Below, one piece after another: positions 13,500 through 57,815 of a stretch of 64,000 nt of DNA. The number at the start of each line of letters is the position of its first letter. Positions within the stretch are counted from its first letter, which is position 1. This DNA is from an uncultured virus (IMG/VR IMGVR_UViG_3300006108_000010) (Duplodnaviria > Heunggongvirae > Uroviricota > Caudoviricetes). Below the pieces are notes generated by a model that was given only the letters and a program-made list of their open reading frames with translations, was not told where the DNA came from and ran no database searches. A program made the position numbers and the translations under genes. The DNA lies in the IMG/VR virus record IMGVR_UViG_3300006108_000010, positions 1-64,000 of that record. One strand, 5' to 3'.

Positions 13500-13862
13500 G
13501 TGAAAGATAACGACGAAAAAAAATTACAGATGATTTATGAAAAGATGAATCATTACTCTGGTGCTGATATTAAAGAAGATGATATTGGTGAAGAAGAAAA
13601 AAGCGGAGAAGTACCAGATGAGAAGCCACATGTTATCTATATTGATATCGGAGATGATATCTGGGAGATTGATCTGTTATCGGATGACCATAAAAAAGAT
13701 CCGAATAACCTTTTACACAAGATCAAGAAATTCTTAATCTATTATAAGAATGATCATGATATAAATCACAATTTTTTACATGGTTTACTCAACAGCGAAA
13801 AACTCCACAAGTATTTGAAGAAATTTAATACTCACCCTAAAGAATTTTTAAATCAGCTATAA
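13500..13862 (+). CDS. Hypothetical protein with shared N-terminal motif
   Basis: MKDNDEKKLQMIYEKM; TAAATA just upstream. Confidence 0.65.
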   Translation: MKDNDEKKLQMIYEKMNHYSGADIKEDDIGEEEKSGEVPDEKPHVIYIDIGDDIWEIDLLSDDHKKDPNNLLHKIKKFLIYYKNDHDINHNFLHGLLNSEKLHKYLKKFNTHPKEFLNQL

Positions 13863-14437
13863 GCAGAAATAATTTTATTTGCAATGGTTTCTAAATAATC
13901 TGCTCTTTCTTTCTTATCCCAATCCATAGGGGTTTCTAGTGTGCAATAAGGAATACCTCTTTTTCTCATTGCTCTTTCTAATGTTCCCTTTGTTGGCAAG
14001 TGACCGAAAGAAATAACACCATCCTCTGTTTTATCTCCACATGCACTCTTTGCTTTCGGTGCATGAATTGATGCCAATATATCCTTTAGCTTTTCTTTAA
14101 ACTCTGGATTACAATAAGCATAGATTCCACTTCCATCACAATCTTCATGTAGTGCTATTACGACTCTTGGTTTTAAAGATAAAATTTTATTTAAAATTCT
14201 ATCTTCTTTTTCTACCGAATCCTTTTGGTCAAAGTGTCTATTTAAATCAATTGAACCATCTCTTCTTTTTCCTGTCTTATTGACATGGGATATAACGTAG
14301 ATTCCTTCTTTACCTTTAAATCTATCGGCAGCAATAGTTCCAGCTACTTCATCTCCATGAATTCCTCCGACTACAACAATCGGAGAAGATACCTTCTCGT
14401 ATAAAAATTCTAATATTAGGCTATCCCTATCTTTCAT
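13853..14437 (-). CDS. M14/succinylglutamate desuccinylase-aspartoacylase-like Zn hydrolase
   Basis: GGIHGDE, DLNRHF, LHED, TLET motifs. Confidence 0.85.
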   Translation of the reverse strand: MKDRDSLILEFLYEKVSSPIVVVGGIHGDEVAGTIAADRFKGKEGIYVISHVNKTGKRRDGSIDLNRHFDQKDSVEKEDRILNKILSLKPRVVIALHEDCDGSGIYAYCNPEFKEKLKDILASIHAPKAKSACGDKTEDGVISFGHLPTKGTLERAMRKRGIPYCTLETPMDWDKKERADYLETIANKIISAYS

Positions 14438-14451
14438 CTTATACTTACACT

Positions 14452-14525
14452 TGGAGGGCGTAGAGGGAATCGAACCCTCTCATTAAGTTTGGAAGACTAA
14501 CAGGCTACCGTTACATCATACGCCC
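14452..14525 (-). tRNA. tRNA-Gly(UCC)
   Basis: Cloverleaf, anticodon TCC, U-CCA. Confidence 0.9.
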
Positions 14526-14533
14526 AAAAAAAC

Positions 14534-14608
14534 TGGCATCGCCAAGGGGAATCGAACCCCTATTCCACGGATGAAAACCGTGTATCCTAACCGTTAGATG
14601 ATGGCGAC
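14534..14608 (-). tRNA. tRNA-Glu(UUC)
   Basis: CACGG-TT TTC AT-CCGTG, CCA. Confidence 0.92.
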
Positions 14609-14754
14609 TCTATTTATATATCTTAGAGATGTTTTCGCACAAAGTCAACAATAAAGATGATGATACTTAAAATAAAATATCCCAAAAAAAATATCAAAAC
14701 AGATACTCCTGTCATAGCGGCTTCTAGTGGATCAAGCACATATATACTTACAAT

Positions 14755-15211: not shown

Positions 15212-15357
15212 TTACTTCTTTTTCTTTTTGTTTTTAACACAGTTATTTACTATTTTACCAAAAAGTTTTTAGTTCCTTTTTTGTGATAACCTTTCCAACA
15301 GTTGACTTCAGTAATAACACTTCTTATTATTTTATAAAGATTTATTTCTTTTTCCAT
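15212..15357 (-). pseudogene. Small basic Cys-motif protein (CWKGY...NCVK), frameshifted in an A run
   Basis: MEKEINLYKIIRSVITEVNCWKGYHKKGTK continues as KLFGKIVNNCVK only with one more A at 15266-15270. Confidence 0.55.
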
Positions 15358-15599
15358 CTGATTGCTTTATGACCTTTCTTTTTTCTTTTACTTGCTGAAC
15401 ACATTGCTTTTGTAGGGCGACAAGCTGGATAACCTTTTCTTTTTTCGCCTTTTTGTCTACCGCAAACCTTACCAGTTTTACAATCTATCCAACCTTTTTG
15501 ACCACCTGCACCTCTGCGTGAAAACCACCCGTGAAGTCCTTCACGTTTTTCCTTTTCGAAACCTTCTAATAAAGTTGCTACAAGTGAATCAAATTTCAT
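15342..15599 (-). CDS. Small basic Cys-rich protein (GLHGWF...GWIDC...YPACRP)
   Basis: Motif type recalled from T4-like aquatic phages; N-terminus MKFDSLVATLLE. Confidence 0.7.
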   Translation of the reverse strand: MKFDSLVATLLEGFEKEKREGLHGWFSRRGAGGQKGWIDCKTGKVCGRQKGEKRKGYPACRPTKAMCSASKRKKKGHKAIRWKKK

Positions 15600-15763
15600 T
15601 TCTTTTTAGATTTACCCCAATTTTTAGCACCCTTTTTACGACATTTAACCAATGCACCGGATGCGTAGGCGGAGGGCCACACCTTATATCTGCTCTTTAC
15701 TTTATAGTAACAAGCATCTTTTTTTTCTTCTAATATAGAAGCAACTAAAGCATCAAATTTCAT
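15596..15763 (-). CDS. Small basic protein (55 aa) DACYYKVKSRYKVWPSAYASGALVKCRK
   Basis: Manually translated, below the ORF-track cut-off; N-terminus MKFDALVASILEE. Confidence 0.75.
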   Translation of the reverse strand: MKFDALVASILEEKKDACYYKVKSRYKVWPSAYASGALVKCRKKGAKNWGKSKKK

Positions 15764-19169: not shown

Positions 19170-21341
19170 TTAAAATTGTTCTTGCCAATTAAGAGTAGCA
19201 GCACAAACTAAAGGTTTGTATGGAGGGTTTAAACTATAATTGTTTTGTTGGACGAGTAACACAACAGAATCTGGTTGTGTATAATCTACGTTTGCTCCAA
19301 TATTTAAAAAGTTAAGAGCAGTTTGAATATCTTGTACGGTGGTTGCAGAACCCCAACCACCTAATATTTGATATCCACCACTGAGATAAACAACTCCTGT
19401 ATTGTAGTCCCAAACTCTTGATGCTTTGCCCATATTAATTGATCCTGATATGGATTGTTTAGCAGAAGTATTTTGTCCAGATAAAACAGGATTATACATT
19501 AATCGCCAAGAATAATTTGCAGGTGTCGAATTACCACTACCAGCATTAACATTCTGCCATCCTAAATCAGTAATTGATAATCCTTGAAGTTGAATATCAA
19601 CCTTATTATAAGGCTCTCCCTGTCTTAATCCAAGACCAATAATAGCATATTCTGCCGTTGATGTGGTGGAGGGCCATACAACTTGACTTACTGTATTATA
19701 ATTTGCAAAAAAGGGATTCATTGTCACCTCTGCTTCCGTATCTATTGCTTTCGATGAAGCCAATACATAAGGAAGATAAGACAATGTTGCTTGATTAAAT
19801 ATTTCGGTTCTTACTGGTAAAGCTGTTTCCGAAACAAATTGTTGACCATAACGACCAGCAACACCATAGGTATGAATTATAAATGATCCAGTTGGACCCA
19901 CAAGAACAAATCTAACTCTTGAAGTTCTACCACCAAAATAATCAAACCACCATGTCCACTCCTCGTGGAAAGGAGTTTGTGTTAAGGTAATTGTATTACC
20001 AGAAACAAAAGACCCTGGATTAAATGGATATGTTAATGTAATTGTACTTGGTGTAATACTAGAAACCCATGCCACGCCATCATAACCAGAAGGATTAATT
20101 CCAGAAACGGTAACAGTAGATGATTGATTAAATACGCCTATTAAACTTGATGATGTGCTATATGTTACATCATAAGCCGATAAAGTTTGATTTGGAAACG
20201 CAACAGTAGAAATTGAACTATATGTTAATCCTGTAGCACTTACGGATGTAAAGAAATTAAGTCCAGAAGAACCAGTTCCATCTAATTTATCACCATTAAA
20301 ATTAGCACTATTTGTTCTATCCTCAACGATAGTTCCATCCATTTCTCTTCTACGAACAACAACATTAAATGAATTATTGGCAGATAGCTCAAAGAATATA
20401 CCAGAGGCATAATTAAACTGTCCAAATCTTTTTACGGTATAGGGATCAGATCCACAAAAGTTTAGGGTTCCGTATACTTGAGTACCAATGCCAGGTGTGA
20501 ATTTAAAATGTCTTTTGGATTGTCTGATTACATAACCAGTAGAACTCAAACCACTAGTTAATAATGTACTACCTAAATCTTGTATAAAAATACTTTGAGC
20601 ACTGAGACCAGTAAATTGTTCTGTAAGTCTAAAATCACCATCTTTATCAACTGTTGACTGATGCCACCAAGAAGCAGCAGGTTGAGCAACACGAAGTTTA
20701 CCCGCTGGATCTAATTGAAGATTACTAGAATATTGGAAATATAAAGGAGAGTTTACATTGTTATTAGCAATCGAAACCGAAGTTACTGAGTTTAAAATAG
20801 TAGCACTTAAGGAACCTGTTACCGGAATTGGATTACCTGCATCATTTGTAATTTCAATTTGAGGATTGGTAATATAAGCACTTAACGAGTTTACAGGGTT
20901 TAAAACAGTAACAGAACCACTTACAGGTAGAGTAACATTACATTGAGCAATATCAATAGCCGAATTAGCATTTACTTGATAAACATTTAAACCGCCTCTA
21001 GTTGTACCAACTAAATTTCCACTTGAATCACCAATTGCAACACTATCTACATTCGAACCAAAATTTTGAGTTAATACACGAAGGGCATTTGCTCCTACAC
21101 CAACATTAACAACATCTGCCACTGCCCCACTTATCGGATCAAATATACCGACATTACCAATAGATAAACCAGTAGAACTTAAAGAAATTTTTAATGCATC
21201 TAAATTAGTAATATAAGATGCTTGGGCAAAAAGAGGAAAGGGCGCACCATCTTGTTGAATCCATGAATTGCTATAAGCGACATTAGGATTCTGCTGGTTT
21301 GCAGTGAAATTACTTACCAATGTAAGGTTAATATTGTTCAT
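19170..21341 (-). CDS. Putative virion structural protein, paralog of 8743..10527
   Basis: Shares NPNVA(W/Y)SNSW, PL(Y/F)AQA, RQS..H.+.PG, R.G.F...G.FFE, LPVR.E blocks; TAAGTA upstream. Confidence 0.65.
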   Translation of the reverse strand: MNNINLTLVSNFTANQQNPNVAYSNSWIQQDGAPFPLFAQASYITNLDALKISLSSTGLSIGNVGIFDPISGAVADVVNVGVGANALRVLTQNFGSNVDSVAIGDSSGNLVGTTRGGLNVYQVNANSAIDIAQCNVTLPVSGSVTVLNPVNSLSAYITNPQIEITNDAGNPIPVTGSLSATILNSVTSVSIANNNVNSPLYFQYSSNLQLDPAGKLRVAQPAASWWHQSTVDKDGDFRLTEQFTGLSAQSIFIQDLGSTLLTSGLSSTGYVIRQSKRHFKFTPGIGTQVYGTLNFCGSDPYTVKRFGQFNYASGIFFELSANNSFNVVVRRREMDGTIVEDRTNSANFNGDKLDGTGSSGLNFFTSVSATGLTYSSISTVAFPNQTLSAYDVTYSTSSSLIGVFNQSSTVTVSGINPSGYDGVAWVSSITPSTITLTYPFNPGSFVSGNTITLTQTPFHEEWTWWFDYFGGRTSRVRFVLVGPTGSFIIHTYGVAGRYGQQFVSETALPVRTEIFNQATLSYLPYVLASSKAIDTEAEVTMNPFFANYNTVSQVVWPSTTSTAEYAIIGLGLRQGEPYNKVDIQLQGLSITDLGWQNVNAGSGNSTPANYSWRLMYNPVLSGQNTSAKQSISGSINMGKASRVWDYNTGVVYLSGGYQILGGWGSATTVQDIQTALNFLNIGANVDYTQPDSVVLLVQQNNYSLNPPYKPLVCAATLNWQEQF

Positions 21342-24594: not shown

Positions 24595-25212
24595 CTATTT
24601 TAAATAATCTAGCGTAGAACCTCTACGAGGCTTGTGTGATTCTTGGATAAGTCCTTGATCTGGATTATATTTTGCACTGCCTCTTCCACCCAAATATCTT
24701 AAAGTTGAATTTGCAGATTCTTGATGCACAGGATTATCAGAAATAGCATTGGCAACTTTCTTTGATTGACGATGACCATGACGCTCAACTGCACCATCTA
24801 GACTCTTTTTCAAATCATTAAGAAATGCTTCCAAATTATCTTTGGTAGGATTGCTAATATAAGCCTGTGCAATTTCCTTTGATGTTCTTGATTCGATATC
24901 GTGTACGATTTCTTCCTTTGGTTCGTGTTTTAAAAGGGATTTAATTTTTGTTAAAAGGTGTTGAACTCCACCCTTGGATGCCATATCAAATCCTTTTTGA
25001 ATTGCAGCTACGGTGGCGGCTCCAAGCATGCCTGGTATATAGAACGATGCCAATGTTACCAACCCTTGTATCTGTGGTGACATATGACCTGTACTTCTAA
25101 TTGCAGAAACAATTTCATTTGCAATGTGAGAAAAATCTTCGTTAATAACGTTTCTTTTAACGCTACTATAAGCTTCTTCTAGGCTAACTTGATCTTTTGA
25201 ATTTGAGAACAT
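24595..25212 (-). CDS. Hypothetical protein with shared N-terminal motif
   Basis: MFSNSKDQVSLEEAYSSVKRNVINE; start re-placed at 25212. Confidence 0.65.
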   Translation of the reverse strand: MFSNSKDQVSLEEAYSSVKRNVINEDFSHIANEIVSAIRSTGHMSPQIQGLVTLASFYIPGMLGAATVAAIQKGFDMASKGGVQHLLTKIKSLLKHEPKEEIVHDIESRTSKEIAQAYISNPTKDNLEAFLNDLKKSLDGAVERHGHRQSKKVANAISDNPVHQESANSTLRYLGGRGSAKYNPDQGLIQESHKPRRGSTLDYLK

Positions 25213-25213: not shown

Positions 25214-26185
25214 TTACTTGGATTTTTTAACTGGTTTGGAGGTAATCTTCTTACCGTATTTTTCTGCACCCTTTTTTATACCCTTTACGATTCTTTCCTT
25301 TTTCTCTTTGCCGTAATGATGACCTGTTTTCTTTTCAAGTGCTTTTTCAACAGCCCAAGGGTTTATATTCTTTTTTCCGGAAACGGCTTTCTTCTTCGCT
25401 TCCTTGATGATGTCAAGAGCAGCGGATAAAAGATCGAAATCTTCTTCCTCAACTGAAATTTCTTCTTTACCTTCTAGCTTTTCATTATCACCATGTTCGC
25501 CTTCCTCCGATTTTTTATATTTGGAAGACTCCTCTTCTTCCTTATCCTTAACGTCTTCAACCTTTTCCTTTTCGGTTTTTTCAACGTGATCTTCCTCTTC
25601 GTCTGCCTCTACAACAGGAAGCTTGTATGAACCTGTTTTCTGTGTACCAGAATGAGGATCATTATCAACACGATTGAATGGGTGTTTATGATCTGTGTTT
25701 CTTGGATCAATGTCCTGAGATTCACTTAAAAGCTTTGCATAAACATCTTCCAATGAAGTTGATTCTTTGTAATTGTTATATGCTACGTCACCATGAAGAG
25801 CACCATGCTCGTGCTTTCTTTCTGCATAACCTTCTGCTCCTCTTTGCATTCTCTGAGCAGCGATATCCTTTTCGACTTCTCTATTTGTTAATCCACGAAG
25901 CTTTTCTTCTGGTCTTGATGGTTTGAACTTAAGTAAGAAATCATCAGCGTTCTCTTCGTCATTTATAAATCCTTCTGAATCAACGTGTGCACTAACACCC
26001 ATCTTTCTAAGCTCCATAACTTTCTGACCACTCTGGGTTTTATAGCCAACGATTTTAAATCCGTGCTCTTCTAATTTATGGATTGTGGCTTGCTGATCGT
26101 GAGGCAAACTACTTGTATCATATGCCTCGTTAACTAAAACTTTATTATAAGCTTCTTCTAAAATGAGATAGTCTTTCTTGTTCAT
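25214..26185 (-). CDS. Acidic/basic putative internal head protein
   Basis: MNKKDYLILEEAYNKVLVNE plus an internal copy SLEDVYAKLLSE; TAAGTA upstream. Confidence 0.65.
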   Translation of the reverse strand: MNKKDYLILEEAYNKVLVNEAYDTSSLPHDQQATIHKLEEHGFKIVGYKTQSGQKVMELRKMGVSAHVDSEGFINDEENADDFLLKFKPSRPEEKLRGLTNREVEKDIAAQRMQRGAEGYAERKHEHGALHGDVAYNNYKESTSLEDVYAKLLSESQDIDPRNTDHKHPFNRVDNDPHSGTQKTGSYKLPVVEADEEEDHVEKTEKEKVEDVKDKEEEESSKYKKSEEGEHGDNEKLEGKEEISVEEEDFDLLSAALDIIKEAKKKAVSGKKNINPWAVEKALEKKTGHHYGKEKKERIVKGIKKGAEKYGKKITSKPVKKSK

Positions 26186-26513: not shown

Positions 26514-27647
26514 TTAGTGGATGATTAAATACGTACCACGAACGTCTCTGCGTGAGGCGGAGAGGTCGGATTCGCCAGGCAATACGATCACGTTATACTG
26601 CCCGTTCTGACCTTCAGGGGTATGTTTCAATTCATCAATTGTTAAAACACTCTTTGGATCAATCTTATATCTCTGTGCAATGAGTTGCTTTACTGCATCT
26701 GGATTGGTATAAACCCACTTCTTGTTTTTTAATTCAATGTATTTGAATTTTGAAATCGGATAAAGGGAAGGCTCCTTTGTTGGGTCTTTAATATTAACGA
26801 TATAGGAAACCTTATCTTTCTGAGGATCAATTAATTTCTCCTGTTCTTTTCTTGCCCCGTAAGAGAAGTTAAAGATTACGTTATGTGGAGGATTTGGAAT
26901 TGATTTAATTAATGCAACTTCCTTGGTGTAGATATAGTGATCTGCATCAGGCGTTGCATTTACAATTTTCATTACAATATCAAAGAACTTAGGGGAGAGT
27001 AAGTCACCGGAATCATTCCAGCGAACCTGAACTTTCTTGCCTCTGTTTTTAATAGCAGCTAATTTAATTTCTGCTACCATTTGGTTTTCATAACCCTCTG
27101 CATCATTGAAGAGATAGTTAAGGGTTTTATTCTGGAACATGGAAACCTCTGGATACATGACATATGATCCGTGTTTTGCGTAACATACTAATTGACAAGC
27201 ACCAGCGGATGGACAGGTTGTAATGATTTTAAATTCTCCTGTGCTTTCGTCAACAACCATACCCTTTAAGGCAGGAAGAGTTGTGTTAAAGAAAACTGTG
27301 GTGTCTGTACCACTCTTTTGCATCTTCTCGTTTTGGCGTAAAAGCTCCTTTGGACGGGTCATTAAGATTTTCTTAAATTCATCAAGATCAACTTTTTCGC
27401 CATCTGGAGTTTGGATCATTACCTTCTTTGCAATGGCGGAATGGATATGAGGCATGTGGAAATAATCCTTATCCTTACCTTTCTTTTCGCTTGCCTTGAG
27501 TTTTGATTTTTCGTTAACCCTGTTAATATAGGCAACTAGTTCTTCTGGGGCAATTGCGTCTGCCTTTGCTCCCAATGTGTCGAATGCTTCCAAAATAGAA
27601 ACTTCTTCGTACAAACTCTCAAGTATTAATGCGTCTTTATCTCTCAT
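26514..27647 (-). CDS. GP88-like (radical-SAM-like Fe-S) protein
   Basis: N.KM, LPA, CPSAGACQLVCYA, RWNDSGD, YIYTK motifs. Confidence 0.75.
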   Translation of the reverse strand: MRDKDALILESLYEEVSILEAFDTLGAKADAIAPEELVAYINRVNEKSKLKASEKKGKDKDYFHMPHIHSAIAKKVMIQTPDGEKVDLDEFKKILMTRPKELLRQNEKMQKSGTDTTVFFNTTLPALKGMVVDESTGEFKIITTCPSAGACQLVCYAKHGSYVMYPEVSMFQNKTLNYLFNDAEGYENQMVAEIKLAAIKNRGKKVQVRWNDSGDLLSPKFFDIVMKIVNATPDADHYIYTKEVALIKSIPNPPHNVIFNFSYGARKEQEKLIDPQKDKVSYIVNIKDPTKEPSLYPISKFKYIELKNKKWVYTNPDAVKQLIAQRYKIDPKSVLTIDELKHTPEGQNGQYNVIVLPGESDLSASRRDVRGTYLIIH

Positions 27648-27680: not shown

Positions 27681-28130
27681 CTAAATTTGCGCCGTAAGCT
27701 TTCCATCGATAATGGATACAAGCTTTGCATTATAAATGGGTTGCTCATTTGCTCGGTTTACAAATGAGTTATATTTGTAGGGATTATAGGTAATACTAAT
27801 TGGTAAAACACGAGGTTCTTCGTTGGATAAAAACCCAATAACCCCTGCATGAACATTTTTTCTTTTCTGTTCACGAACCTTTTCCATTCCCCCTTGACGA
27901 ACCTTTAAAATGCAATCCTTAAGCAAGAGATTTCTTTCATGACCAATAACCTTATTTGTTGCCACATCCATAATGGAGAATATAGGATAGCCAAGTTTAT
28001 CTGACAAGTTTAGGTTCTTATACACCCAAACTTTTCCAGAAAACCCAATATGACCAGTTCTTGCTTCTAATCCCTCCTCGCAAATAAGACTATAGGCTTC
28101 TTGAAGTAAAAGTGTATCACGATCTCGCAT
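27681..28130 (-). CDS. Conserved phage hypothetical protein (VYKNL...KRKNVHA...YNPYK)
   Basis: Motifs; start re-placed at MRDRDTLLLQEAY. Confidence 0.65.
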   Translation of the reverse strand: MRDRDTLLLQEAYSLICEEGLEARTGHIGFSGKVWVYKNLNLSDKLGYPIFSIMDVATNKVIGHERNLLLKDCILKVRQGGMEKVREQKRKNVHAGVIGFLSNEEPRVLPISITYNPYKYNSFVNRANEQPIYNAKLVSIIDGKLTAQI

Positions 28131-44871: not shown

Positions 44872-44999
44872 TTGGGTAAAATAATATGTTTCCCAATTTT
44901 TCCCCAAAGGGGAAGGTTTTGGGAATTGGGTAAAATAATATTTTTTCACCATTCCTGCCCAAATGGGTAAAATAAAATGTTTCGGAATATTTTACCCAT
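44872..44999. repeat. Three clustered 36-37-bp elements
   Basis: 44872-44907, 44926-44962, 44963-44999. Confidence 0.85.
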
Positions 45000-45767: not shown

Positions 45768-45907
45768 AGATAGTTTTATTTATTAGGTGCTCATAAGTTT
45801 GCAAATAGTGTTATGTAATGTGGAGTTGTGGTAATAGAAAATAGTGTTGTATTATTTCACGGTGCGCTATTAAATCGGAGTTGTCTTTTGGGTAAATATT
45901 ATTACCT

Positions 45908-46648: not shown

Positions 46649-46693
46649 ATAAAATTTGACATCTCTTTGGTTTGCCTCTACTATTAGAGAGAT

Positions 46694-46999: not shown

Positions 47000-47002
47000 A
47001 AC

Positions 47003-47468
47003 ATGGAAGAAGAAAACCAGAACTATGTGCATCTTATGGAAATAAGTGCAGAGATAGTCGATGCCCAAAAGGGGATGCTCAAGTTCAGAATGTATCCTTC
47101 CGATATGTTTCTTGCCTACGCTGAGCACATGCAACCCGATACCCTTGCAACTATTCTTGGCGTTCTTGCCCAAGTTGTCATTGACAGAAGAGAAGAAAAG
47201 GATCAGATAAAATTTGTCAAAAGCTTTTTGAAACACTTTAAAAAGAACCTAGACGAGACAATGATTTATGACACCCACAAAATTAACACAGAAGATTGAA
47301 CATGCCAGTGCAGTAGATATCCGTAACGACAATTGCTCAAAGCAAGACTTGCTGTGGTATCAAAACTATAGAAGAGAAGTTCTCAAACTCCCAAAGGAAA
47401 GAAAACCCTTTAAAAAGAAGTTGACACGCAAAAATAAATCTGTTAAGGTAAGAACCTATGAAAATTAA
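47003..47468 (+). CDS. Two hypothetical proteins (47003..47299, 47268..47468)
   Basis: ORF track. Confidence 0.5.
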
Positions 47469-47955
47469 AACAACATTGGTAACACTCCTCACTGTGACTG
47501 CTCTTGCAACCAATTCCCAAGCATGGACTGCTTCTGGTAGTCATGGTGGCTATGCATCAGGCGGTGGAGGCTCTTATAGTGTAACAACGCCTCGTGGTAA
47601 TACCTACTCTGGAAGCTACAATGGTGGCTTTTACAATCGAGGCTATGCAGGAAGTGCATGCGCCTATAACAGAGCCTACGTCAGAGCCTACAATGCAGGA
47701 TACGCAAGTGGATACTGTGGGGGCGGAGGCTACTACAGGGGTGGATATTGCGGCGGAGGTTACTATGGTGGCGGTTACTACGGTGGAGGCTATTGTGGCG
47801 GAGGATGGTGCGGTACGGCAATTCCCAATGGTTTGGGATGGGCATTGTTTGGTATTGCCTCTGTACTAACTCTTGGTCTCATCTCGGCTCCTCCTGTTGC
47901 AGTTGCTCCTCCTCCAACTGTTTACACTCCTGCACCCAATGCCCTGCCCTATTAA
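47458..47955 (+). CDS. Secreted/membrane Gly-Tyr-rich protein
   Basis: Signal peptide ending AxA, GGYY/GGYC repeats, C-terminal TM and Pro-rich tail. Confidence 0.7.
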   Translation: MKIKTTLVTLLTVTALATNSQAWTASGSHGGYASGGGGSYSVTTPRGNTYSGSYNGGFYNRGYAGSACAYNRAYVRAYNAGYASGYCGGGGYYRGGYCGGGYYGGGYYGGGYCGGGWCGTAIPNGLGWALFGIASVLTLGLISAPPVAVAPPPTVYTPAPNALPY

Positions 47956-47971
47956 GACTATTGGTTCATTC

Positions 47972-50231
47972 ATGAAAACAGCACTCATTATATCTACTCT
48001 TAATTTGTTCTCCATTACCTGTGCTCTGATTGCAGGATACATGGCAATTCATGGTATAACAGGTTGGGGATGGTTCTTGATCTCTGCCGTTCTGTCTCAT
48101 TGCTCTATTTCAGGAGTAAAAGAAGATAAGAAGAACGATGAGTAGTCATCATAAATGTCCATTCTGTAGAAGCGTTCTGGTAAGTGGAACTGCTGAAGGT
48201 ACTCTTGATGGATCTAATCCTATCACATGGGATTGTGGAACCAATGTCAAAAGTAATGTTGTGCTTCCATCGGACGAATGTAAGGAAAGAATCAATAAGA
48301 GACTAGAAGTAAAGCAAACCAATGTGAGCGAATATGTCTCTATGATGAAGGCTATTGATCCCTTGCTTCCTGAAAGAGTTGTTGTCATGAAAGAGAAGAC
48401 AATCAACTTTGAATGCAAGGAAGACTTTAAACCAAAGGTAATGGAATTAATGAAGAAACTTGGAATTTAAGGTTGACTTCATATTCAAAATACCCTATAC
48501 TGTATAAACAATTATGAGAGACATATTCACCGCATTCCTATCGTTCCTCACAATCATTGTAATCGTGCTTGGTTTAAGCTGGGTTTTTACAGGAAACGAT
48601 TTCTTCCTGTACAAATACTTTGCTCCAAAGCAGGAAGCAGTTCGTCGTCAAGTCTTTGAGCAATCCAAGGCATATAACCAAGGAATGATTCAAGAACTCC
48701 AGAACATGCAGTTTCAGTATCTACAGACTGATAAGGATCATCAGGCGGCACTTGCAGGTATCATTCTCCATCGTGCCGCTGATTATGATATTGACAAACT
48801 GCCTCCTGATCTGTATAGTTTTATCCAGACGCTTAAGAATAACCAAACCCACAAATACTAATGAATATAAAATCAACAAAAATAGAAGACAATAACATAA
48901 ACACATTGGAATTTCCAACTTTGATGGTCAATGATGAGGGAATGGTTATTTTAGCAACAAATACAGGTCATGGTGGTCTTGGTTATACTGGCACATTGTT
49001 ATACAGTAAATTTCCAAATGAAATTGGAATGCATCTAGACAAGTGGAGTAGTCAATTCAAACCATATTATGGTAAAGTAACACTAGAAAAGCACCTTTCA
49101 GCATAAAAACAAAATAAAACAAACATGAAAAACAAACTAATCCTAATTATTGCCACAGTAGCAACAATTGCAATCACTGGTTGTGATACTACCATACGTA
49201 CAACGAGTGATCAGGTTCAGAATCGTAGACAAGAAGAAATCCTAAAAGAATGTGCATCTGAAGTTGGTATGCCAGCAATCAAGAACTTTCGTGAGAAGAA
49301 ACTTCTCAAGGATATTCTTGAGATGCGAGATCAGGATGGTCTTACTACCTATACCTATATCGTAGCAGAGAATACTGGTAAGCTTATCTTCCTTGGGGAG
49401 TCGATTGGTTATGGTATTCCTTATGCCACCCAATATACTAGTCCAATGAGACCAGCAAAGTCTTATGAAACATATGAACAGGGTAATGTAACTATTCCAC
49501 AGGCTGATCCCAATGGTTTGTATTCCCCTGCAAGCTGTGATGGTACTTGGGTTCTTCTAAAAGATCCTAATAGTAATAACGTGAAGCCAGTTTATATCGA
49601 ACCTCGCATTATTGTAAGCCCCTTTAAACTTCAGAATAACTAAAATTTATGAGCAAAAAACTAGTAACAATAATCGACAAGGAAAATTCAATGTACGTTG
49701 GAGAGCTTGTCGCAGATAGAACCGATCACCTCGTGATCAAAAACCCAGTAGGCATCGCCTACCCAAGAGACAAGGATGGTAACGTCAGTATTGCAGTAGT
49801 CCCTGTAATGTATGATGGTTTCCTGAGTCAGAAGGCAATCAAGGAAGGAGTTCATTTTAACTTCTACACGACGAGCCTAAAGTGGTATGGTGAGTATATT
49901 GAATTTCATCCTCAGTTCATTCAAAAGTATGAGGATATCTTTAAGCACACGCCAGCTGTTGCAACTCCTAATATCATTGAACAGGAAACTCCAGCAGCTA
50001 ATTGAATGCATCGCTGATGATGCATTGAAGATGGATGGTTATGATGACTGTATCGTTGGTGTAGTCGAAAGACTCCGTCAGCCTAACCATCTCATCTACG
50101 ATGTCGATAAGGTTCTAAAGAAACTTATGAAACAGGGTATGACCAGCCATGAAGCACAGGAATGGTACGAATTTAATATGGTTGGAGCATACGTAGGAGA
50201 AACAACCCCTAGCTTTTTATACAAGCCGTAG
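47972..50231 (+). CDS. Operon of small hypothetical and membrane proteins (incl. 48138..48470, 48514..48861, 48861..49106, lipoprotein 49125..49643, 49649..50005, ~50031..50231)
   Basis: Coupled ORFs; ITGC lipobox in 49125; TTGACT-N17-TATACT at 48473-48501. Confidence 0.6.
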
Positions 50232-50405: not shown

Positions 50406-50729
50406 TTAGAGTTCTTCGTCGTAATCTTTAGCAGCATCGGCATCAGCCATTGGACTTAAAAAGTCACTGGAATTAGCCTCTTCCTCTGCTTCGCCACCTA
50501 AACCGAACTCTGCTAAGATTGCATCAATAGCATCTTCGGAAGCAGGAAGATTATGTTGTCTGAAAATATCTGCGAGAGCTTCCTTCTTGTCATGATCACC
50601 GGAAACACTATATGAGGTTGGTGCTTCGTCAGGAGTCTCATCGGTTTCGTTTGGAGTCGCTCCAAAATTCTCTCTAAGAAGAATTTTGCTGTAGATTGAT
50701 TCTAAACTTTTTTGGTCTTTATTTGCCAT
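50406..50729 (-). CDS. Acidic protein with shared N-terminal motif
   Basis: MANKDQKSLESIYSKILLRE; TAAATA upstream. Confidence 0.7.
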   Translation of the reverse strand: MANKDQKSLESIYSKILLRENFGATPNETDETPDEAPTSYSVSGDHDKKEALADIFRQHNLPASEDAIDAILAEFGLGGEAEEEANSSDFLSPMADADAAKDYDEEL

Positions 50730-51076
50730 AGTATTTATATTTACTCAACTAAAGTGCCATATTAAAGATATTTTTTTATTTTTCTCTGTAGAAATTTAAA
50801 AAATAATAAATTTTTAGCGTTTTTTTGGGAAACCCCCCCATTTTTTCCCACTTTTTCCCACTTTTTTTGGGTATTTTCTGGTATTTATTCGGGTATTTTT
50901 TAGATAAATATAAGCGTGACCGATAGATTATTTGAATATTTCTTTGAATACAAACATCACAATCACGTTAAAATGTTACGAATTGTGGCTCACCATAGCT
51001 CTATCGCCAAAGAAAAATTAAGGGAAACTTACCCTGATGGTGAATTAATTTTATTGGAATTGCGCCCCTTGGATTA

Positions 51077-54835: not shown

Positions 54836-55021
54836 TATTTTGATAGGGCTTTTGCGATCCTCTCGTAATGATTTCTGGATTTTTCCAGATCGGCAATACG
54901 ATCCAAAAGGATTGCAATATATTCTTTTAACTCATCGACACTCATTGTGTCAATATCTTTTTCTTGGCTCATGGTATTTTTTTAATATATACCAAAATCA
55001 AAAATAATGCAAGCTTATTTT

Positions 55022-56188
55022 TTAGGCGGATCTTTTTTGATGGAGTGCTTCTGGAACTTCGCCCTCTTTAGAAGTTTCCTTTTTCAAGCCATATGGAGCA
55101 ACAGTAAGTTTATCTAAATCGATAGTAAAGTTACCGAATGTTTGTTCTCCGGTTTTCTCATCATAGTATTTTGCCTTGATGACATCAAAAATGATTTGAT
55201 CTCCGATATTTTTTGAGAATTCGTCTATTCTAATACCACTTACAATTTGCCCATCCTGAAGTTTGAATCTCTTTCTGGCTAATTGTTCTTTGGAAACTGG
55301 CTTACCATACTGAGGTACACCACCTTCCCAAAGCGTAGGAGGCTGTCTTAATCCCTTTCTTACGTCTGGGAGTGGGTCGGGCCATACATTTGCAACTTCG
55401 GTTTGCTTGATAAAAGGAAGATTACCTTTAATATAATTTCCTTCTTTGTCCTTGCCTTTCTTGGTGTAGATGATCCAGTTGGTTGCACCAGTTTTTGGAT
55501 TGAATGATGATGCAAGATCTAATGCAAAGTAATGCTGACCTGGTGCGGATTGCATTCTCGTGTAAGATCCTTGTTTAATAAGCTCTTCAAAGTTTTCAAA
55601 ATCCTGTCTAACCAAGGTATCAAGATTCGCTTCGATTTGATTCCATCTTCTTGGATCGAAAGCAATCTTTTTCTTTTCAGCATCTTTGGCAAAAAGAGGA
55701 ACCTTGGCTTTAATCTTATCACGGACTTGATTGATTACATCACTAACTGGCTTGTAGTCATCATAGTTTAATGGAATATCAGTCTTCTCGTTTTTAAGAT
55801 TTGCTAATTTTGAGAGAATGGTAACTAATGATCTTGAGATATTAAAGACTTCCTGTTCATCGTTTGTCTTATCAAGTTGATTGTTTAAAACAATAATTTG
55901 ACTTCTAAATTGATCTAATCTTTTGTTTTCGTACTCGCCTGATTGGGTTGCATGCTTTTTGCTGACAGCGGCAGATCTATTTTCCGTTGATCCTAATCCA
56001 CCAACCTGATACTTCTTAGCACCAGATGGAAGTAAATCAGATACAGGAAGCGGATGATCAAATCTTTCTTTGTCTACTGTTTCGTTTTTATATTTAATAC
56101 CAAGTTTAAGTTTCTCTTCGGGAGTGAGTTCTCTTACTCTAGTATCTGCCTCTGTAAAAAGAGAAGAAACAATTTTATCAAAATTCAT
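55022..56188 (-). CDS. Hypothetical late protein (MNFDKIVSSLFTEA)
   Basis: TAAATA upstream; N-terminus resembles the MKFD..V...L.E class. Confidence 0.65.
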   Translation of the reverse strand: MNFDKIVSSLFTEADTRVRELTPEEKLKLGIKYKNETVDKERFDHPLPVSDLLPSGAKKYQVGGLGSTENRSAAVSKKHATQSGEYENKRLDQFRSQIIVLNNQLDKTNDEQEVFNISRSLVTILSKLANLKNEKTDIPLNYDDYKPVSDVINQVRDKIKAKVPLFAKDAEKKKIAFDPRRWNQIEANLDTLVRQDFENFEELIKQGSYTRMQSAPGQHYFALDLASSFNPKTGATNWIIYTKKGKDKEGNYIKGNLPFIKQTEVANVWPDPLPDVRKGLRQPPTLWEGGVPQYGKPVSKEQLARKRFKLQDGQIVSGIRIDEFSKNIGDQIIFDVIKAKYYDEKTGEQTFGNFTIDLDKLTVAPYGLKKETSKEGEVPEALHQKRSA

Positions 56189-56237
56189 GCTTATCATATA
56201 TTCTATATTTACTCTTAAAAAGAGTATTTTATTAGAA

Positions 56238-56450
56238 TTATACTTTAATCATTTGCTGCACGGTAAACTGAACAGATGCATGAGCAGCCGTTTCGACGTT
56301 TACCTTGTGAGCAATCGTAATCCAACCTCTTTGATTATAGAGGTCGATTTGCTTCTGAATCCCTTCATGAAGAATTTTCTTTCTTTGACCAAAAGAAAGA
56401 TTTGGTTTAGTGAATGGGATCTTTACGATTTCGTTTATTATTCTTGCCAT
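56238..56450 (-). CDS. Hypothetical protein
   Basis: 70-aa ORF. Confidence 0.5.
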   Translation of the reverse strand: MARIINEIVKIPFTKPNLSFGQRKKILHEGIQKQIDLYNQRGWITIAHKVNVETAAHASVQFTVQQMIKV

Positions 56451-56480
56451 GTTAATATATTATCAGATTGCTTGATTATG

Positions 56481-57815
56481 TCAAGCTTTTATTTTTTTTC
56501 TCTGTATTTTTGGTTTACCTGTTGTCGGCTTAGCCGTTGCCATTCTTTTACTTGCGCCAGTTTTTAATTTCGGTGTTGCCGTTGGCGTTGGTGTAGTGTC
56601 AATGGGAATATTATTTTCTTGTTTCCATGCATTATTAATTGCGATTGGATTTACTGCTGGTTTATTATTTTCATCAACCCATTGTTTATTTTTGAAAGTA
56701 TAGACTCTACCATTTTTTAATGTAACTTTATCATTATCAATGGGTTCCGTTTTTTTCTTAACTTGTTGTAAGGTTGATAATCCGTGCATTTTTCTCCACG
56801 TATTAAGAAAAGTTCCTTGATTAATGGCTGGTTTTTTATTTTGATCAACCCATTTTGCACCATTGAAAGTATAAACTGAACCCTTTTGAGTTTTAATCTT
56901 ATCTCCCTTTTGTGGTTTACCAGTTTGTAATTTTGGGGATTTCTCTATAGGATAAGCCCATTTAATGCTTGTTGGATTGTTAATGTCAAACAACGCCGTA
57001 TCACGCGTGTCGGTGTAATTTTTGTCATTTTCTCCATTTAAAAGCGTTTTATTTAAAATATGAACATCTCCCGTTGTCGATGTTACCAATGCGCTTACTT
57101 TATTAGGCTTCTCTTCTTCGGTTTTAAGTTGCGCAAAACCAAATGTACCTGTATTATTTAATCTAACAACGTATTTCTCGTTTTTATCTAATACATTTAT
57201 TATGGTTCCCTTAATATTTGGATTGACTGTTTTGTTTATAACAGCAACAACTGGTTTACCATTTATCGGAATGATTATTTCCTTTGTCTTCTTATCTTCG
57301 TCTCCAATTATTTTAGGCTGTTTTATTTCTTTTTTAAGAAAGGCATCGACAACATCTCCGGTAGCACCTGCTAAGTTGCCAAGAGGATTTTTTGATGTTG
57401 CGGTTGATTTAAAAGCATTTACTCCGGTTTTAACAACATTTGCAACATTTTTTGCGCCTTGATACGCATTTCTAACATCTTGCAAATTAATTTCATTAAT
57501 AACAGATTCCTCTAATTCTCTGTTAAATCTCATCTGTTTACTATTTTCGTAATCACTAATAGTAATTTTAATTGTATCTAATAATTTTCTAAGACTACTA
57601 TTATCTTCTTCGTCTTCTGCATCAGGAGCAGATTCTTGTCCTGCCTTTTCTGGTACTTCTATCTCTGCTTGGGTTAATGGTTCTGTTCCCATTATAGCAG
57701 TTGATGTAGCGGCAGCATTAGAACCATAATAAGGAAATGGTCTACCTGCTTCGTCTTCTTTAATTAGCTTAATACTTTCATACAGAGCTTCTAAACTTTT
57801 AGAATCTTTATCCAT
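56481..57815 (-). CDS. Late protein with shared N-terminal motif and duplicated C-terminal module
   Basis: MDKDSKSLEALYESIKLIKE; two G.VYTF...WVD.N.KPA repeats. Confidence 0.7.
   Translation of the reverse strand: MDKDSKSLEALYESIKLIKEDEAGRPFPYYGSNAAATSTAIMGTEPLTQAEIEVPEKAGQESAPDAEDEEDNSSLRKLLDTIKITISDYENSKQMRFNRELEESVINEINLQDVRNAYQGAKNVANVVKTGVNAFKSTATSKNPLGNLAGATGDVVDAFLKKEIKQPKIIGDEDKKTKEIIIPINGKPVVAVINKTVNPNIKGTIINVLDKNEKYVVRLNNTGTFGFAQLKTEEEKPNKVSALVTSTTGDVHILNKTLLNGENDKNYTDTRDTALFDINNPTSIKWAYPIEKSPKLQTGKPQKGDKIKTQKGSVYTFNGAKWVDQNKKPAINQGTFLNTWRKMHGLSTLQQVKKKTEPIDNDKVTLKNGRVYTFKNKQWVDENNKPAVNPIAINNAWKQENNIPIDTTPTPTATPKLKTGASKRMATAKPTTGKPKIQRKKIKA

What the first reader, a model, noticed from the sequence alone, without database searches (positions are those of the whole stretch)
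13500..57815. Shared N-terminal peptide on unrelated late proteins: candidate capsid-targeting / injected-cargo system
Seen: eight otherwise dissimilar ORFs begin with D-x3-L(E/Q)-x2-Y-x2-(V/I/M), most followed by a (I/L/V)-x-E site. They are 13500 MKDNDEKKLQMIYEKM, 14437 MKDRDSLILEFLYEKV, 25212 SKDQVSLEEAYSSVKRNVINE, 26185 KKDYLILEEAYNKVLVNE, 27647 DKDALILESLYEEVSILE, 28130 DRDTLLLQEAYSLICEE, 50729 NKDQKSLESIYSKILLRE and 57815 DKDSKSLEALYESIKLIKE. Most have a TAA(A/G)TA motif just upstream. Bodies include an M14-like hydrolase and a GP88-like Fe-S protein. Known: T4 internal proteins carry an N-terminal capsid targeting sequence removed by gp21 protease at (I/L)-x-E. Inference: this is a portable tag that loads a diverse enzyme payload into the head for delivery at infection.
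Basis: partly seen in the sequence, partly recalled or inferred. Interest (0 to 1): 0.85.

Follow-up and report, generated by a model that had tools for sequence, protein, structure and literature searches.

The report
Capsid-loading tag on phage cargo
An uncultured freshwater relative of phage T4 starts seven or eight unrelated late proteins with the same short peptide, which most likely works like T4's "load into the head, then clip off" tag, so its packaged cargo may be readable from sequence; nothing has been measured.

Summary
In the 121.6-kb contig the motif has 9 stop-free six-frame hits, 8 of them at ORF starts. Motif-free clustering of N-termini recovers 7 of the 8.

The contig is a deep-branching T4-type phage with gp20, gp21, gp22 and gp23 homologues.

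The tag is widespread in uncultured relatives. It is always N-terminal (83 of 84 ORFs start M-x-x-KDQILLE). It sits on 62 sequence-unrelated body clusters and is conserved at protein level, not DNA level. [ILV]-x-E follows at a fixed distance in 69 of 103 tags, against about 4% in controls.

Orthologues of one cargo carry either this tag, a T4-CTS-like M-x-S-F-K-E-Y N-terminus, or nothing.

The best reading is a sequence-distinct analogue of the T4 capsid targeting sequence, trimmed by the gp21-like protease (confidence about 0.62). Packaging, cleavage and injection are untested, and the binding partner is unknown.

It is a new variant of a known kind. This scan has noted CTS-like tag systems on other uncultured T4-like phages, but not this tag.

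The parts
13500..13862 (+). Tagged gene, 120 aa, GTG start. The tag plus first I-K-E spans residues 1-26 (nt 13500-13577). The body is acidic and has no family. It is the weakest member.
   Evidence: A late-type motif lies 4 nt upstream. It is not recovered by the external HMM or by de novo clustering, where it was called from a later ATG.
13853..14437 (-). Tagged gene, 194 aa. The tag is residues 1-16 (nt 14390-14437) and is fused directly to an M14-fold AstE/AspA-like zinc hydrolase domain that starts at residue 19. No [ILV]-x-E follows the tag.
   Evidence: (PF24827, E 3.2e-8, residues 19-167). There is no homologue in cultured phages.
24595..25212 (-). Tagged gene, 205 aa counted from the ATG at 25212. 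The tag up to I-N-E is residues 1-25 (nt 25138-25212). The body has no family.
   Evidence: It abuts the upstream tagged gene and has no upstream motif of its own.
25214..26185 (-). Tagged gene, 323 aa. The tag up to V-N-E is residues 1-20 (nt 26126-26185). The body is highly charged, with a Lys-rich C-terminus.
   Evidence: Its body clusters with eight tagged proteins of relatives.
26514..27647 (-). Tagged gene, 377 aa. The tag up to I-L-E is residues 1-20 (nt 27588-27647). A linker of about 80 residues follows, then a GP88-family domain from residue 101.
   Evidence: PF17338, E 6.2e-32. Orthologues with the canonical KDQILLE tag occur in relatives. Cultured-phage homologues align only from residue 94 on.
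27681..28130 (-). Tagged gene, 149 aa counted from the ATG at 28130. The tag up to I-C-E is residues 1-18 (nt 28077-28130), followed by an L5-gp82-family domain from residue 31.
   Evidence: PF25735, E 6.3e-27. The AF2 model has a helix at 4-18 with pLDDT about 57 and the domain from residue 33 with pLDDT about 90. Orthologues carry this tag, a T4-CTS-like N-terminus or nothing.
50406..50729 (-). Tagged gene, 107 aa. The tag up to L-R-E is residues 1-20 (nt 50670-50729). The body is very acidic and has no family. It is the member closest to the clade consensus.
   Evidence: (22.7 bits with the external HMM). An exact TATAAATA lies within its upstream motif.
56481..57815 (-). Tagged gene, 444 aa. 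The tag up to I-K-E is residues 1-20 (nt 57756-57815). The N-terminal half is acidic and the C-terminal half is basic, with a twice-repeated segment. No family.
   Evidence: No relative was found in IMG/VR by protein patterns.

Best explanation
The peptide M-x(1-4)-[KR]-D-x3-L-[EQ]-x2-Y-x2-[VI] has the clade consensus M-[KR]-x-K-D-Q-I-L-L-E-x-[LAI]-Y-x-x-[IV]-hydrophobic, usually followed by [ILV]-x-E. It is read here as a capsid-addressing propeptide of an uncultured freshwater clade of T4-type myoviruses.

Inferred mechanism, in order:
1. The tagged genes are expressed together with the structural genes.
2. The amphipathic N-terminal helix binds a component of the scaffolding core while the prohead is built, so the attached protein is enclosed.
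3. The gp21-like prohead protease cuts after Glu of an [ILV]-x-E site at or just after the end of the tag and frees the cargo inside the head.
4. The cargo may then leave with the DNA at infection.

Shown here:
- The tag is real, strictly N-terminal, selected at the protein level and portable across unrelated bodies.
- It is followed by a position-specific [ILV]-x-E.
- It is exchangeable with a T4-CTS-like N-terminus on orthologous cargo.
- It occurs in genomes that encode the T4-type head-maturation set.

Inferred only: late timing, binding to the core, cleavage, presence in virions and injection.
For: Genome context:
- The contig encodes a major head protein (E 4e-89), a scaffold (1.9e-7), a head maturation protease (9e-63) and a portal (3.2e-96) by PHROGs.
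- The protease is 34% identical to T4 gp21 over 145 residues, E 1e-20.

N-terminal position:
- All 8 own tags lie at ORF starts.
- All 19 profile hits in four relatives lie at ORF starts.
- In 83 of 84 distinct IMG/VR ORFs that match the back-translated core, the core begins exactly 3 codons after an ATG. The 84th follows a GTG.

Specificity:
- 1379 ORFs from 80 capsid-gene neighbourhoods of relatives give no hit above 7.4 bits.
- In the complete relative G001, motif-free clustering finds this tag as the largest N-terminal cluster. It has 14 members, against a largest control cluster of 4.

Portability:
- 102 tagged bodies fall into 62 BLASTP clusters, 47 of them singletons.
- Bodies include GP88 (4 of 82), GNAT (2) and CCA-adding-type nucleotidyltransferase with HD domain (3). 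L5-gp82-like (3) and ART-like (4) hits are below Pfam cut-offs. 65 of 82 have no Pfam hit.

Protein-level selection:
- All six Leu codons are used at the conserved Leu positions. Both codons each of Asp, Glu and Tyr are used at their conserved positions.

Cleavage-site logic:
- [ILV]-x-E with Glu at Tyr+5 to +7 occurs in 69 of 103 non-redundant tags. Control windows give 580 of 16,657 (3.5%), and Tyr-anchored controls give 31 of 759 (4.1%).
- The scaffold has the largest [ILV]-x-E excess of 120 proteins: 19 observed against 8.4 expected, z 4.9.
- The capsid proteins of the clade carry C-I-E-E, F-L-S-E or L-L-Q-E at the end of the conserved N-terminal segment. This lies about ten residues before the position aligned with the T4 gp23 segment F-L-T-E-A-E-I.

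Tag swap:
- Among 15 aligned homologues of the gp82-like cargo, 5 carry this tag.
- 4 carry M-[KEL]-S-F-K-E-Y..E, and 6 carry neither.
- The T4 record gives MKTYQEFIAE for ipII and ipIII and MKTFKEF.. for ipI.
- The T4-like form sits between tagged genes in relative G003. It also heads a 66-aa very basic protein in a 210.6-kb record that carries this tag as well.

Literature:
- In T4, CTS residues 4 and 7 carry the targeting and residues 8 and 10 the processing. CTS-like leaders on diverse internal proteins are known in T-even phages (passages of PMC9026906; PMC3012670).

Co-regulation hint:
- 7 of 8 tagged genes carry the TA[AT][AGT]TA[AT][AT] motif 2-7 nt before the start. So do about 17 of the 39 genes of the structural half, against about 2 of 48 genes between 28 and 50 kb. 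Many other genes have TTGACA...TATAAT-like promoters instead (my counts).

Co-occurrence:
- Both further tag-bearing records that are at least 90% complete encode the protease at 78-80% identity.
- G001 and G002 encode it as well.
Against: - There is no experimental datum of any kind, and no cultured relative. The best capsid-protein identity to a cultured phage is about 34%.
- The tag has no sequence similarity to the T4 CTS.
- T4-CTS-like N-termini coexist with it in the same genomes. The two peptides could therefore have different destinations.
- 34 of 103 tags lack [ILV]-x-E at +5 to +7. Among the 34 are all four ART-like proteins and this window's M14-like protein, which has no such site after the tag.
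- The conserved core itself contains L-L-E, so the true cut site, if there is one, is ambiguous.
- This genome's tags are divergent. With a profile built only from other genomes, six score 5.5-22.7 bits and two are not among the top 14.
- The tag profile shows no resemblance to the scaffold profile (hhalign probability 0.6%).
- Its resemblance to the protease C-terminal segment D-N-G-E-[LF]-E-x-x-Y is not significant (at most 4.6 bits). No binding partner can be named.
- Late expression is inferred from a motif alone.
- 10 of 10 smaller fragments of relatives and 1 of 5 large ones have no tag hit. These are fragments, so this is weak evidence.
Confidence: 0.62

Rival explanations
1. The tag is a docking helix for a common partner that is not the prohead core. 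Examples are a late-assembly chaperone, a tail or baseplate site, a membrane-bound assembly platform or a phage hub protein. The tagged proteins would then be gathered somewhere other than inside the head.
For: - The strict N-terminal position, portability and protein-level conservation fit any addressing function.
- T4-type CTS-like N-termini coexist in the same genomes, which could mean that head targeting is already served by another peptide.
- No similarity to the scaffold was found.
Against: - Orthologues of one cargo carry either this tag or the T4-type N-terminus. That is easier to explain if both lead to the same place.
- The position-specific [ILV]-x-E matches the site type of the gp21-like protease, an enzyme that in T4 acts inside the prohead (PMC9026906 passages).
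- No tag occurs on any ORF of the structural neighbourhoods.
Confidence: 0.15
2. The tag is a removable pro-peptide or regulatory handle that is unrelated to packaging. It might keep potentially harmful enzymes such as GNAT, ART-like or nucleotidyltransferase proteins inactive, or mark them for timed degradation or activation by a phage or host protease.
For: - Several bodies are enzymes of kinds that can be toxic.
- A Glu-ended site follows the tag in two thirds of cases.
- The tag is a separate, low-confidence helix in front of a well-folded domain.
Against: - Most tagged bodies are small, highly charged proteins with no enzyme family. 65 of 82 have no Pfam hit, so inhibition by a pro-peptide has no obvious object for them.
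- A 16-residue helix common to 62 unrelated folds cannot plausibly inhibit each of them by specific contacts.
- This rival is partly compatible with the main reading rather than opposed to it.
Confidence: 0.1
3. The conservation lies in the nucleic acid. It would be a translation-initiation or mRNA-stability element that extends into the coding region, or a recombination cassette that moves promoters and gene starts together.
For: A conserved motif lies immediately upstream of the start codon of 7 of 8 tagged genes. Mobile promoter-plus-gene-start cassettes are described in T4-type genomes (recalled, not checked here).
Against: - The conserved residues are written with all synonymous codons. 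Six Leu codons are used at each conserved Leu, and third-position identity across pairs is 0.65.
- The upstream motif is shared with many untagged genes.
- The peptide is conserved between genomes whose capsid proteins are only 61-81% identical.
Confidence: 0.03
4. The shared N-termini are a chance similarity, or the trace of recent duplication of one gene.
For: None beyond the shortness of the motif.
Against: - 8 of 9 stop-free hits are N-terminal.
- There are 14 N-terminal pairs against 0 control pairs at score 35 or more.
- The eight bodies lie in eight different clusters.
- 83 of 84 ORFs in other records have the identical register.
Confidence: 0.01

Closest known systems
[quoted passage not shown]
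   Same: - A short N-terminal peptide on otherwise unrelated proteins.
- It ends in a hydrophobic-x-Glu site.
- The phage encodes gp21, gp22 and gp23 homologues.
- The genes are scattered in a variable region next to tRNA genes, as ipI, ipII and ipIII are in T4.
- Some cargo is small and highly charged.
- A CTS is known to carry foreign proteins into the head (PMC9026906 and PMC3012670, passages read).
   Different: - The sequence is different: K-D-Q-I-L-L-E-x-x-Y-x-x-[IV] here, M-K-T-[YF]-[QK]-E-F in T4.
- It is longer, about 16-20 residues against 10.
- It is used on many more proteins per genome: 8 on this 58%-sized contig and 8 or more in the complete relative.
- It is used on sizeable enzymes.
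- No packaging or cleavage has been shown.
CTS-like leaders on polymorphic internal proteins of other T-even phages
   Same: One conserved leader with fast-changing bodies, read as an arms-race cargo set (PMC3012670 and PMC9026906 passages).
   Different: Those leaders are recognisably the T4 CTS in close relatives of T4. Here the clade is remote (capsid protein about 34% identical to the nearest cultured phage) and the leader is a second, unrelated sequence. It coexists with T4-type leaders.
N-terminal packaging signal of phage P1 DarB
   Same: An N-terminal stretch of 30 residues or fewer that suffices to bring a reporter into the capsid (PMC9024508, passages read).
   Different: P1 shows no consensus among its Dar proteins (same passages), and there is no evidence there for a shared, portable motif. 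P1 is not of the T4 type in scaffold organisation.
Propeptides of head and ejection proteins of phiKZ, 201phi2-1 and SPN3US-like giant phages, cut after Glu by a gp21-related protease
   Same: Many head-internal proteins are processed after Glu by a distant gp21 relative (PMC9026906 passages).
   Different: No single short shared addressing peptide is described there, and the propeptides are long and varied. The present phage belongs to the T4 capsid-gene lineage, not to that group.
Cargo-loading peptides of encapsulins (recalled, not checked here)
   Same: A short portable peptide that docks diverse cargo inside a shell of the HK97 fold.
   Different: That peptide is C-terminal, is not removed, binds the shell protein itself and belongs to a bacterial nanocompartment rather than a virion.

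Membership tests
T4-type capsid targeting sequence / gp21-processed internal head proteins | A short leader at the extreme N-terminus of otherwise unrelated proteins | tested here: met
   - 8 of 8 own tags are N-terminal.
- 19 of 19 profile hits in relatives are N-terminal.
- 83 of 84 IMG/VR ORFs are in an identical register.
- 102 bodies fall into 62 clusters.
T4-type capsid targeting sequence / gp21-processed internal head proteins | Sequence likeness to the T4 CTS (M-K-T-[YF]-[QK]-E-F-x-x-E) | tested here: not met
   The tag consensus does not resemble the T4 leaders read from the T4 record. T4-like leaders do occur in relatives, but on other genes or on orthologues, and none occurs in this contig.
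T4-type capsid targeting sequence / gp21-processed internal head proteins | The leader ends in a (Leu/Ile)-x-Glu site of the prohead protease | tested here: inconclusive
   [ILV]-x-E occurs at Tyr+5 to +7 in 69 of 103 tags, against about 4% in controls. It is present in only 4 of 8 in this window at that distance, in 3 more further on and in none for 14437. The cut itself cannot be seen in sequence.
T4-type capsid targeting sequence / gp21-processed internal head proteins | The phage encodes a gp21-type protease and a gp22-type scaffolding core | tested here: met
   PHROGs hits, 34% identity to T4 gp21, and the scaffold is the protein most enriched in [ILV]-x-E.
T4-type capsid targeting sequence / gp21-processed internal head proteins | Expressed late, together with the head genes | tested here: inconclusive
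   An upstream motif is shared with structural genes. No transcript data are available.
T4-type capsid targeting sequence / gp21-processed internal head proteins | The proteins are physically inside the head, are trimmed and are released at infection | not testable with these tools
   This needs virion proteomics or packaging assays.
Pfam GP88 (PF17338) for the body of 26514-27647 | A match above the gathering score | tested here: met
   111.7 bits against a cut-off of 24.4, residues 101-294.
M14-fold AstE/AspA catalytic domain (PF24827) for the body of 13853-14437 | A match above the gathering score, with the His-x-x-Glu metal motif present | tested here: met
   33.8 bits against a cut-off of 25, residues 19-167. 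G-I-H-G-D-E and a later H-E-D are visible in the translation. Assigning these to metal binding is from recall.

The most novel reading that the evidence does not exclude
This clade runs a multi-address cargo system with three different clip-off N-terminal leaders in one genome.
- The K-D-Q-I-L-L-E-x-x-Y type.
- An M-K-F-D-x-L-V-x-x-x-L-E type on small basic Cys-rich proteins.
- The ancestral T4-type M-x-[ST]-F-[KR]-E-[FY].

These leaders would sort proteins into different places, copy numbers or release orders within the head. They can be exchanged between orthologues by evolution.

The K-D type would load a large and fast-changing set of enzymes: a CCA-adding tRNA repair enzyme, acetyltransferases, ART-like proteins, a zinc hydrolase and GP88/gp82-family proteins. 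These would be delivered with the DNA as pre-made counter-defence, and the injected proteome of uncultured phages could then be read from sequence alone.
Probability: 0.2. Interest if true: 0.8.

Novelty: new variant of a known kind. Interest (0 to 1): 0.55.

Why it matters
If the reading is right, three things follow.

1. The set of proteins that a whole clade of abundant uncultured freshwater phages carries in its heads can be listed from sequence. That set probably includes proteins delivered into the host ahead of any gene expression. More than 60 unrelated families are already seen, most of unknown function. This would be a ready catalogue of candidate host-takeover and anti-defence proteins. 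It includes a tagged CCA-adding enzyme, which suggests pre-packed tRNA repair.

2. It would show that the T4 head-loading principle is not tied to one peptide. The address was replaced by an unrelated sequence while the protease-site logic was kept, and old and new addresses coexist.

3. Such tags are practical handles for loading foreign proteins into capsids of phages other than T4.

The mechanism itself is textbook for T4, so the gain is in breadth and in the cargo list, not in a new principle.

Tried and rejected
1. Complex prediction with the scaffold alignment (A5) and the 40-residue tag alignment (A4) returned 'no answer', score 0.00 in both runs, and no controls were run. It says nothing either way.

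2. Scaffold-mimic idea. The scaffold N-termini look a little like the tag by eye. However, the tag HMM gives no hit at scaffold N-termini and hhalign gives probability 0.6%. The idea was dropped.

3. Protease-mimic idea. The protease C-terminal segment D-N-G-E-[LF]-E-x-x-Y is conserved in 63 relatives and resembles the tag. It scores -1.0 bits in this genome and at most 4.6 bits (E 3.3) in relatives. It is kept only as a passing note.

4. Relatives of the 444-aa tagged protein in IMG/VR: none found.

5. IMG/VR scan for the back-translated M-x-S-F-K-E-Y-Y-L-E leader: 0 stretches.

6. P0012 in viral contigs gave only relatives of 47% identity or less, without that leader. The metagenome scan gave one 1,185-bp contig that has it.

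How many T4-type leaders G001 holds therefore remains open. De novo clustering of G001 showed none as a cluster.

8. Foldseek of the gp82-like model found no match at E 0.001 or better, so the function of that cargo remains unknown.

9. ART-like cargo in relatives gave only weak signals:
- Pfam hits are below the cut-offs.
- The PDB profile search gave E 0.11-0.32.
- The AF2 model is poor, pLDDT 63.
- Foldseek top hits are ADP-ribosyltransferase-fold chains, but at E 0.15 or worse.
It is treated as tentative.

10. Sequencing runs: no RNA holder is listed. The holders are DNA runs labelled freshwater metagenome.

11. A megablast of 24-30 kb against cultured phages gave no match.

Full report
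WHAT THE DNA IS

The window is the first 64 kb of a single 121,597-bp virus contig. It has about 34% G+C, with a 43% block at 28-48 kb. ARAGORN finds 17 tRNA genes and a tmRNA gene, and Rfam supports them.

The other half of the contig holds a T4-type morphogenesis module (PHROGs):
- major head protein, E 4e-89
- head scaffolding protein, E 1.9e-7
- head maturation protease, E 9e-63
- portal, E 3.2e-96
- head closure, neck and baseplate proteins, and a clamp loader

The protease is 34% identical to T4 gp21 over 145 residues (E 1e-20). The nearest cultured capsid proteins, from cyanomyoviruses, are only about 33-34% identical.

IMG/VR holds many uncultured relatives with capsid proteins 51-100% identical. 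One is a complete 211,587-bp genome with terminal repeats, called G001 here. The contig is therefore roughly the 58% fragment of a phage of about 210 kb. DNA runs that hold it are labelled freshwater metagenome.

THE OBSERVATION

All eight N-termini exist as described. There are three corrections:
- 13500 has a GTG start, lies alone on the + strand and is the most deviant member.
- 25212 is an ATG inside a longer GTG-initiated frame.
- 28130 is an ATG inside a longer TTG-initiated frame.

Frequency of the motif:
Eight are at ORF starts and one is internal.
- A comparison that uses no motif recovers seven of the eight as the one large cluster. It compared residues 2-22 of 120 predicted proteins, all against all. 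It found 14 pairs scoring 35 or more, against none for residues 41-61. The eighth gene had been called from a later ATG.
- The eight bodies lie in eight separate BLASTP clusters.

A caution is needed. A profile built only from 95 tags of other genomes scores six of the eight at 22.7 to 5.5 bits, with two unrelated frames scoring in between. It misses 14437 and 13500. This genome's version is therefore a divergent sub-type. Membership of 27647 and 28130 is secured instead by orthologues in relatives that carry the canonical tag on the same body.

THE TAG IN RELATIVES

A profile of the eight finds tag hits in four of five large related records:

| Record | Tag hits |
|---|---|
| G001 | 9 |
| G002 | 5 |
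| G003 | 3 |
| G005 | 2 |
| G004 | 0 |

Every hit is at an ORF start. Ten smaller fragments, 14-38% complete, have no hit.

A scan of IMG/VR for the back-translated core K-D-Q-I-L-L-E-x-x-Y found 119 stretches. The 80 fetched loci come from 54 contigs (my count) and hold 84 distinct ORFs. In 83 of these the Lys is residue 4 after an ATG, and in the last it follows a GTG.

In the complete genome G001, motif-free clustering again gives this tag as the largest N-terminal cluster, with 14 members. The largest control cluster has 4 members, which are collagen-like repeats. A profile finds 8 clear members between 27 and 102 kb.

None of 1379 ORFs from 80 capsid-gene neighbourhoods scores above 7.4 bits.

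The clade consensus comes from 103 non-redundant tags. The core positions are biased by the way most of them were found, but the flanks are not. It reads: M, K/R, N/S/T, K, D, Q, I, L, L, E, x, L/A/I, Y, x, x, I/V (82%), hydrophobic (76%), followed by Glu-rich positions.

PROTEIN OR DNA?

The conserved residues are written with all synonymous codons. All six Leu codons are used at both conserved Leu positions, and both codons each are used for Asp, Glu and Tyr. The proportions are close to those of the gene bodies. Selection therefore acts on the peptide.

PORTABILITY

The 102 tagged bodies fall into 62 BLASTP clusters, 47 of them singletons. Pfam was run on 82 of the 84 IMG/VR ORFs:

| Pfam result | Number | Note |
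|---|---|---|
| GP88 | 4 | |
| GNAT acetyltransferase | 2 | |
| PolyA_pol head domain plus HD | 3 | |
| DUF5591 | 1 | |
| L5 gp82 | 3 | below cut-off |
| PARP / ART-PolyVal / DUF3990 | 4 | below cut-off |
| No hit | 65 | |

NCBIfam reads the PolyA_pol plus HD proteins as CCA tRNA nucleotidyltransferase-like (E 6e-42, domain from residue 56).

The ART-like assignment stays tentative.

In this window:
- The M14-fold domain starts at residue 19, the gp82-family domain at residue 31 and the GP88 domain at residue 101.
- The gp82-family body occurs in 914 cultured phage records, and the listed alignments start at residue 23-27.
- GP88-like matches in cultured phages start at residue 94 or later.
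- An AlphaFold2 model of the gp82-like protein shows a helix at residues 4-18 at pLDDT about 57, in front of a domain at about 90.

So the tag is an appendage and not part of any fold.

THE PROTEASE-SITE LOGIC

- [ILV]-x-E with the Glu 5-7 residues after the Tyr is present in 69 of 103 tags. Control windows of the same proteins give 3.5%, and Tyr-anchored controls give 4.1%.
- The split is 55 of 76 in the pattern-derived set, 10 of 19 in the profile-derived set and 4 of 8 in this window. Three more in this window have such a site further on, and the M14-like protein has none.
- The scaffold protein has the largest excess of [ILV]-x-E of all 120 proteins of 70 residues or more: 19 against 8.4 expected, z 4.9. 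This is what is expected if it is chopped at such sites, as T4 gp22 is (PMC9026906 passages).
- The capsid proteins of the clade have C-I-E-E, F-L-S-E or L-L-Q-E at the end of their conserved N-terminal segment.

These points argue that the protease keeps a T4-like preference. They do not show any cut. The conserved core also contains L-L-E, so the position of a cut is open.

THE TAG SWAP

This is the most telling result. Homologues of the gp82-like cargo (20 found, 15 aligned) fall into three groups:
- Five carry this tag.
- Four begin M-[KEL]-S-F-K-E-Y-(Y/F)-x-E.
- Six have neither. Some start directly with the first strand of the domain.

The T4 record gives MKTYQEFIAE for ipII and ipIII and MKTFKEF... 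for ipI. In T4, residues 4 and 7 of this leader carry the targeting and residues 8 and 10 the processing (PMC9026906 passages). The aromatic residues 4 and 7 and Glu 10 are kept in the leaders of the relatives.

This T4-like leader was found in four places:
- on the gp82-like gene of relative G003, which sits between three genes with the K-D tag
- on a 66-residue, very basic protein in a 210.6-kb record that also carries K-D tags
- twice on a short metagenome contig, next to a GNAT-like gene with a diverged K-D tag

The same cargo thus carries either an address of the experimentally proven T4 kind or the new peptide. That is best explained by a shared destination.

TIMING

- Seven of the eight tagged genes have TA[AT][AGT]TA[AT][AT] ending 2-7 nt before the start codon, with no Shine-Dalgarno sequence.
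- The same arrangement precedes about 17 of the 39 genes of the structural half, and only about 2 of 48 genes between 28 and 50 kb.
- Many other genes have TTGACA-N17-TATAAT-like promoters (my counts).
- One tagged gene has an exact TATAAATA, which is the T4 late-promoter consensus as I recall it.

This suggests co-regulation with head genes, but it is only a motif.

CO-OCCURRENCE

All four near-complete tag-bearing records examined encode the gp21-like protease.

WHAT REMAINS OPEN

- The binding partner is not known. The tag profile does not resemble the scaffold.
- The resemblance to a conserved C-terminal protease segment is not significant.
- The presence of two or three leader types in one genome could mean different destinations.
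- No data exist on virion content, cleavage or injection.

COMPARISON WITH WHAT IS KNOWN

The principle is established for T4 and the T-even phages. It consists of a conserved N-terminal CTS on diverse internal proteins, incorporation into the scaffolding core and removal by gp21. Reviews already suggest that it is an evolutionary device for loading varied proteins (PMC3012670, PMC9026906; passages read). P1 DarB has an N-terminal signal without a consensus (PMC9024508 passages).

What is new here is a different leader sequence in a remote uncultured clade. It is used on many proteins per genome and on more than 60 body families, including sizeable enzymes, and it coexists and is exchangeable with T4-type leaders.

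Three full-text searches found no paper describing such a leader outside the T-even group. I saw listings and abstracts only, apart from the three papers read in passages.

This scan has repeatedly noted CTS-like tag systems in other uncultured T4-like phages.

VERDICT

The finding is a new variant of a known kind, of moderate to good interest.

Noticed in passing
window 15342-15599 (-) and 15596-15763 (-); G001 67689 (+), 106445 (-), 154675 (+): A second shared N-terminal peptide, M-(N)-K-F-D-x-L-V-x-x-x-L-x-E, heads small, very basic, Cys-containing proteins of 55-128 aa. There are two adjacent examples here and three in the complete relative. They look like T4-style internal proteins with their own clip-off leader ending in L-L-E or I-L-E.
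   Followed up: partly
L086 1040 (+) (= G003 about 98257); L120 1462 (-); L240 898 (+) and 47 (-): T4-CTS-like N-termini (M-x-[ST]-F-[KR]-E-[FY]-x-x-E) occur in relatives. One heads a 66-aa Lys/Arg-rich protein. None is present in this contig.
   Followed up: partly
window, upstream of about 37 genes, e.g. 27648-27661, 50730-50744, 57816-57831, 58921-58936: The late-type motif TA[AT][AGT]TA[AT][AT] ends only 2-11 nt before the start codon and no Shine-Dalgarno sequence is present. Late mRNAs may therefore be leaderless or nearly so, or the motif may act in translation initiation. There are no transcript data.
   Followed up: no
window 6431-6881 (-): A phage-encoded tmRNA gene (Rfam RF00023, 104.4 bits, full length; ARAGORN predicts a tag peptide) lies between tRNA-Ala and tRNA-Val, inside a region with 17 tRNA genes.
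   Followed up: partly
window about 28400-48000: A block of 43-44% G+C lies in a genome of 33-35%. Its genes have A/C-rich leaders, TTGACA-type promoters, HNH/NUMOD4 endonucleases, DUF932 and an Ogg-like glycosylase, and almost none has the late motif. It may be a module of different origin.
   Followed up: no
window 8743-10527 (-) and 19170-21341 (-): Two large paralogous late-motif genes (594 and 723 aa) share an N-terminal N-P-N-V-A-[WY]-S-N-S-W segment. They have no family and sit among the tRNA genes.
   Followed up: no
contig 106428-107096 (-), residues about 180-195 of the protease; 63 relatives: The gp21-like protease has a conserved C-terminal segment D-N-G-E-[LF]-E-x-x-Y-[ED]-x-F-E after its catalytic domain. 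By eye it resembles the tag, but it is not significant with the tag profile. It might be the protease's own core-docking piece.
   Followed up: partly
L138 7-1539 (-), L164 1492-3024 (+), L183 1492-3030 (+): Relatives carry a tagged 511-aa CCA-adding-type tRNA nucleotidyltransferase with an HD domain. This is a candidate pre-packed tRNA repair enzyme in phages that also carry many tRNA genes.
   Followed up: partly
window 10668-13376: Several long ORFs in my crude gene call overlap tRNA genes (for example 10668-10841 and 12705-13376) and are probably not genes. 11770-12537 has a weak GIY-YIG (SegE-like) match and lies beside tRNA genes.
   Followed up: no
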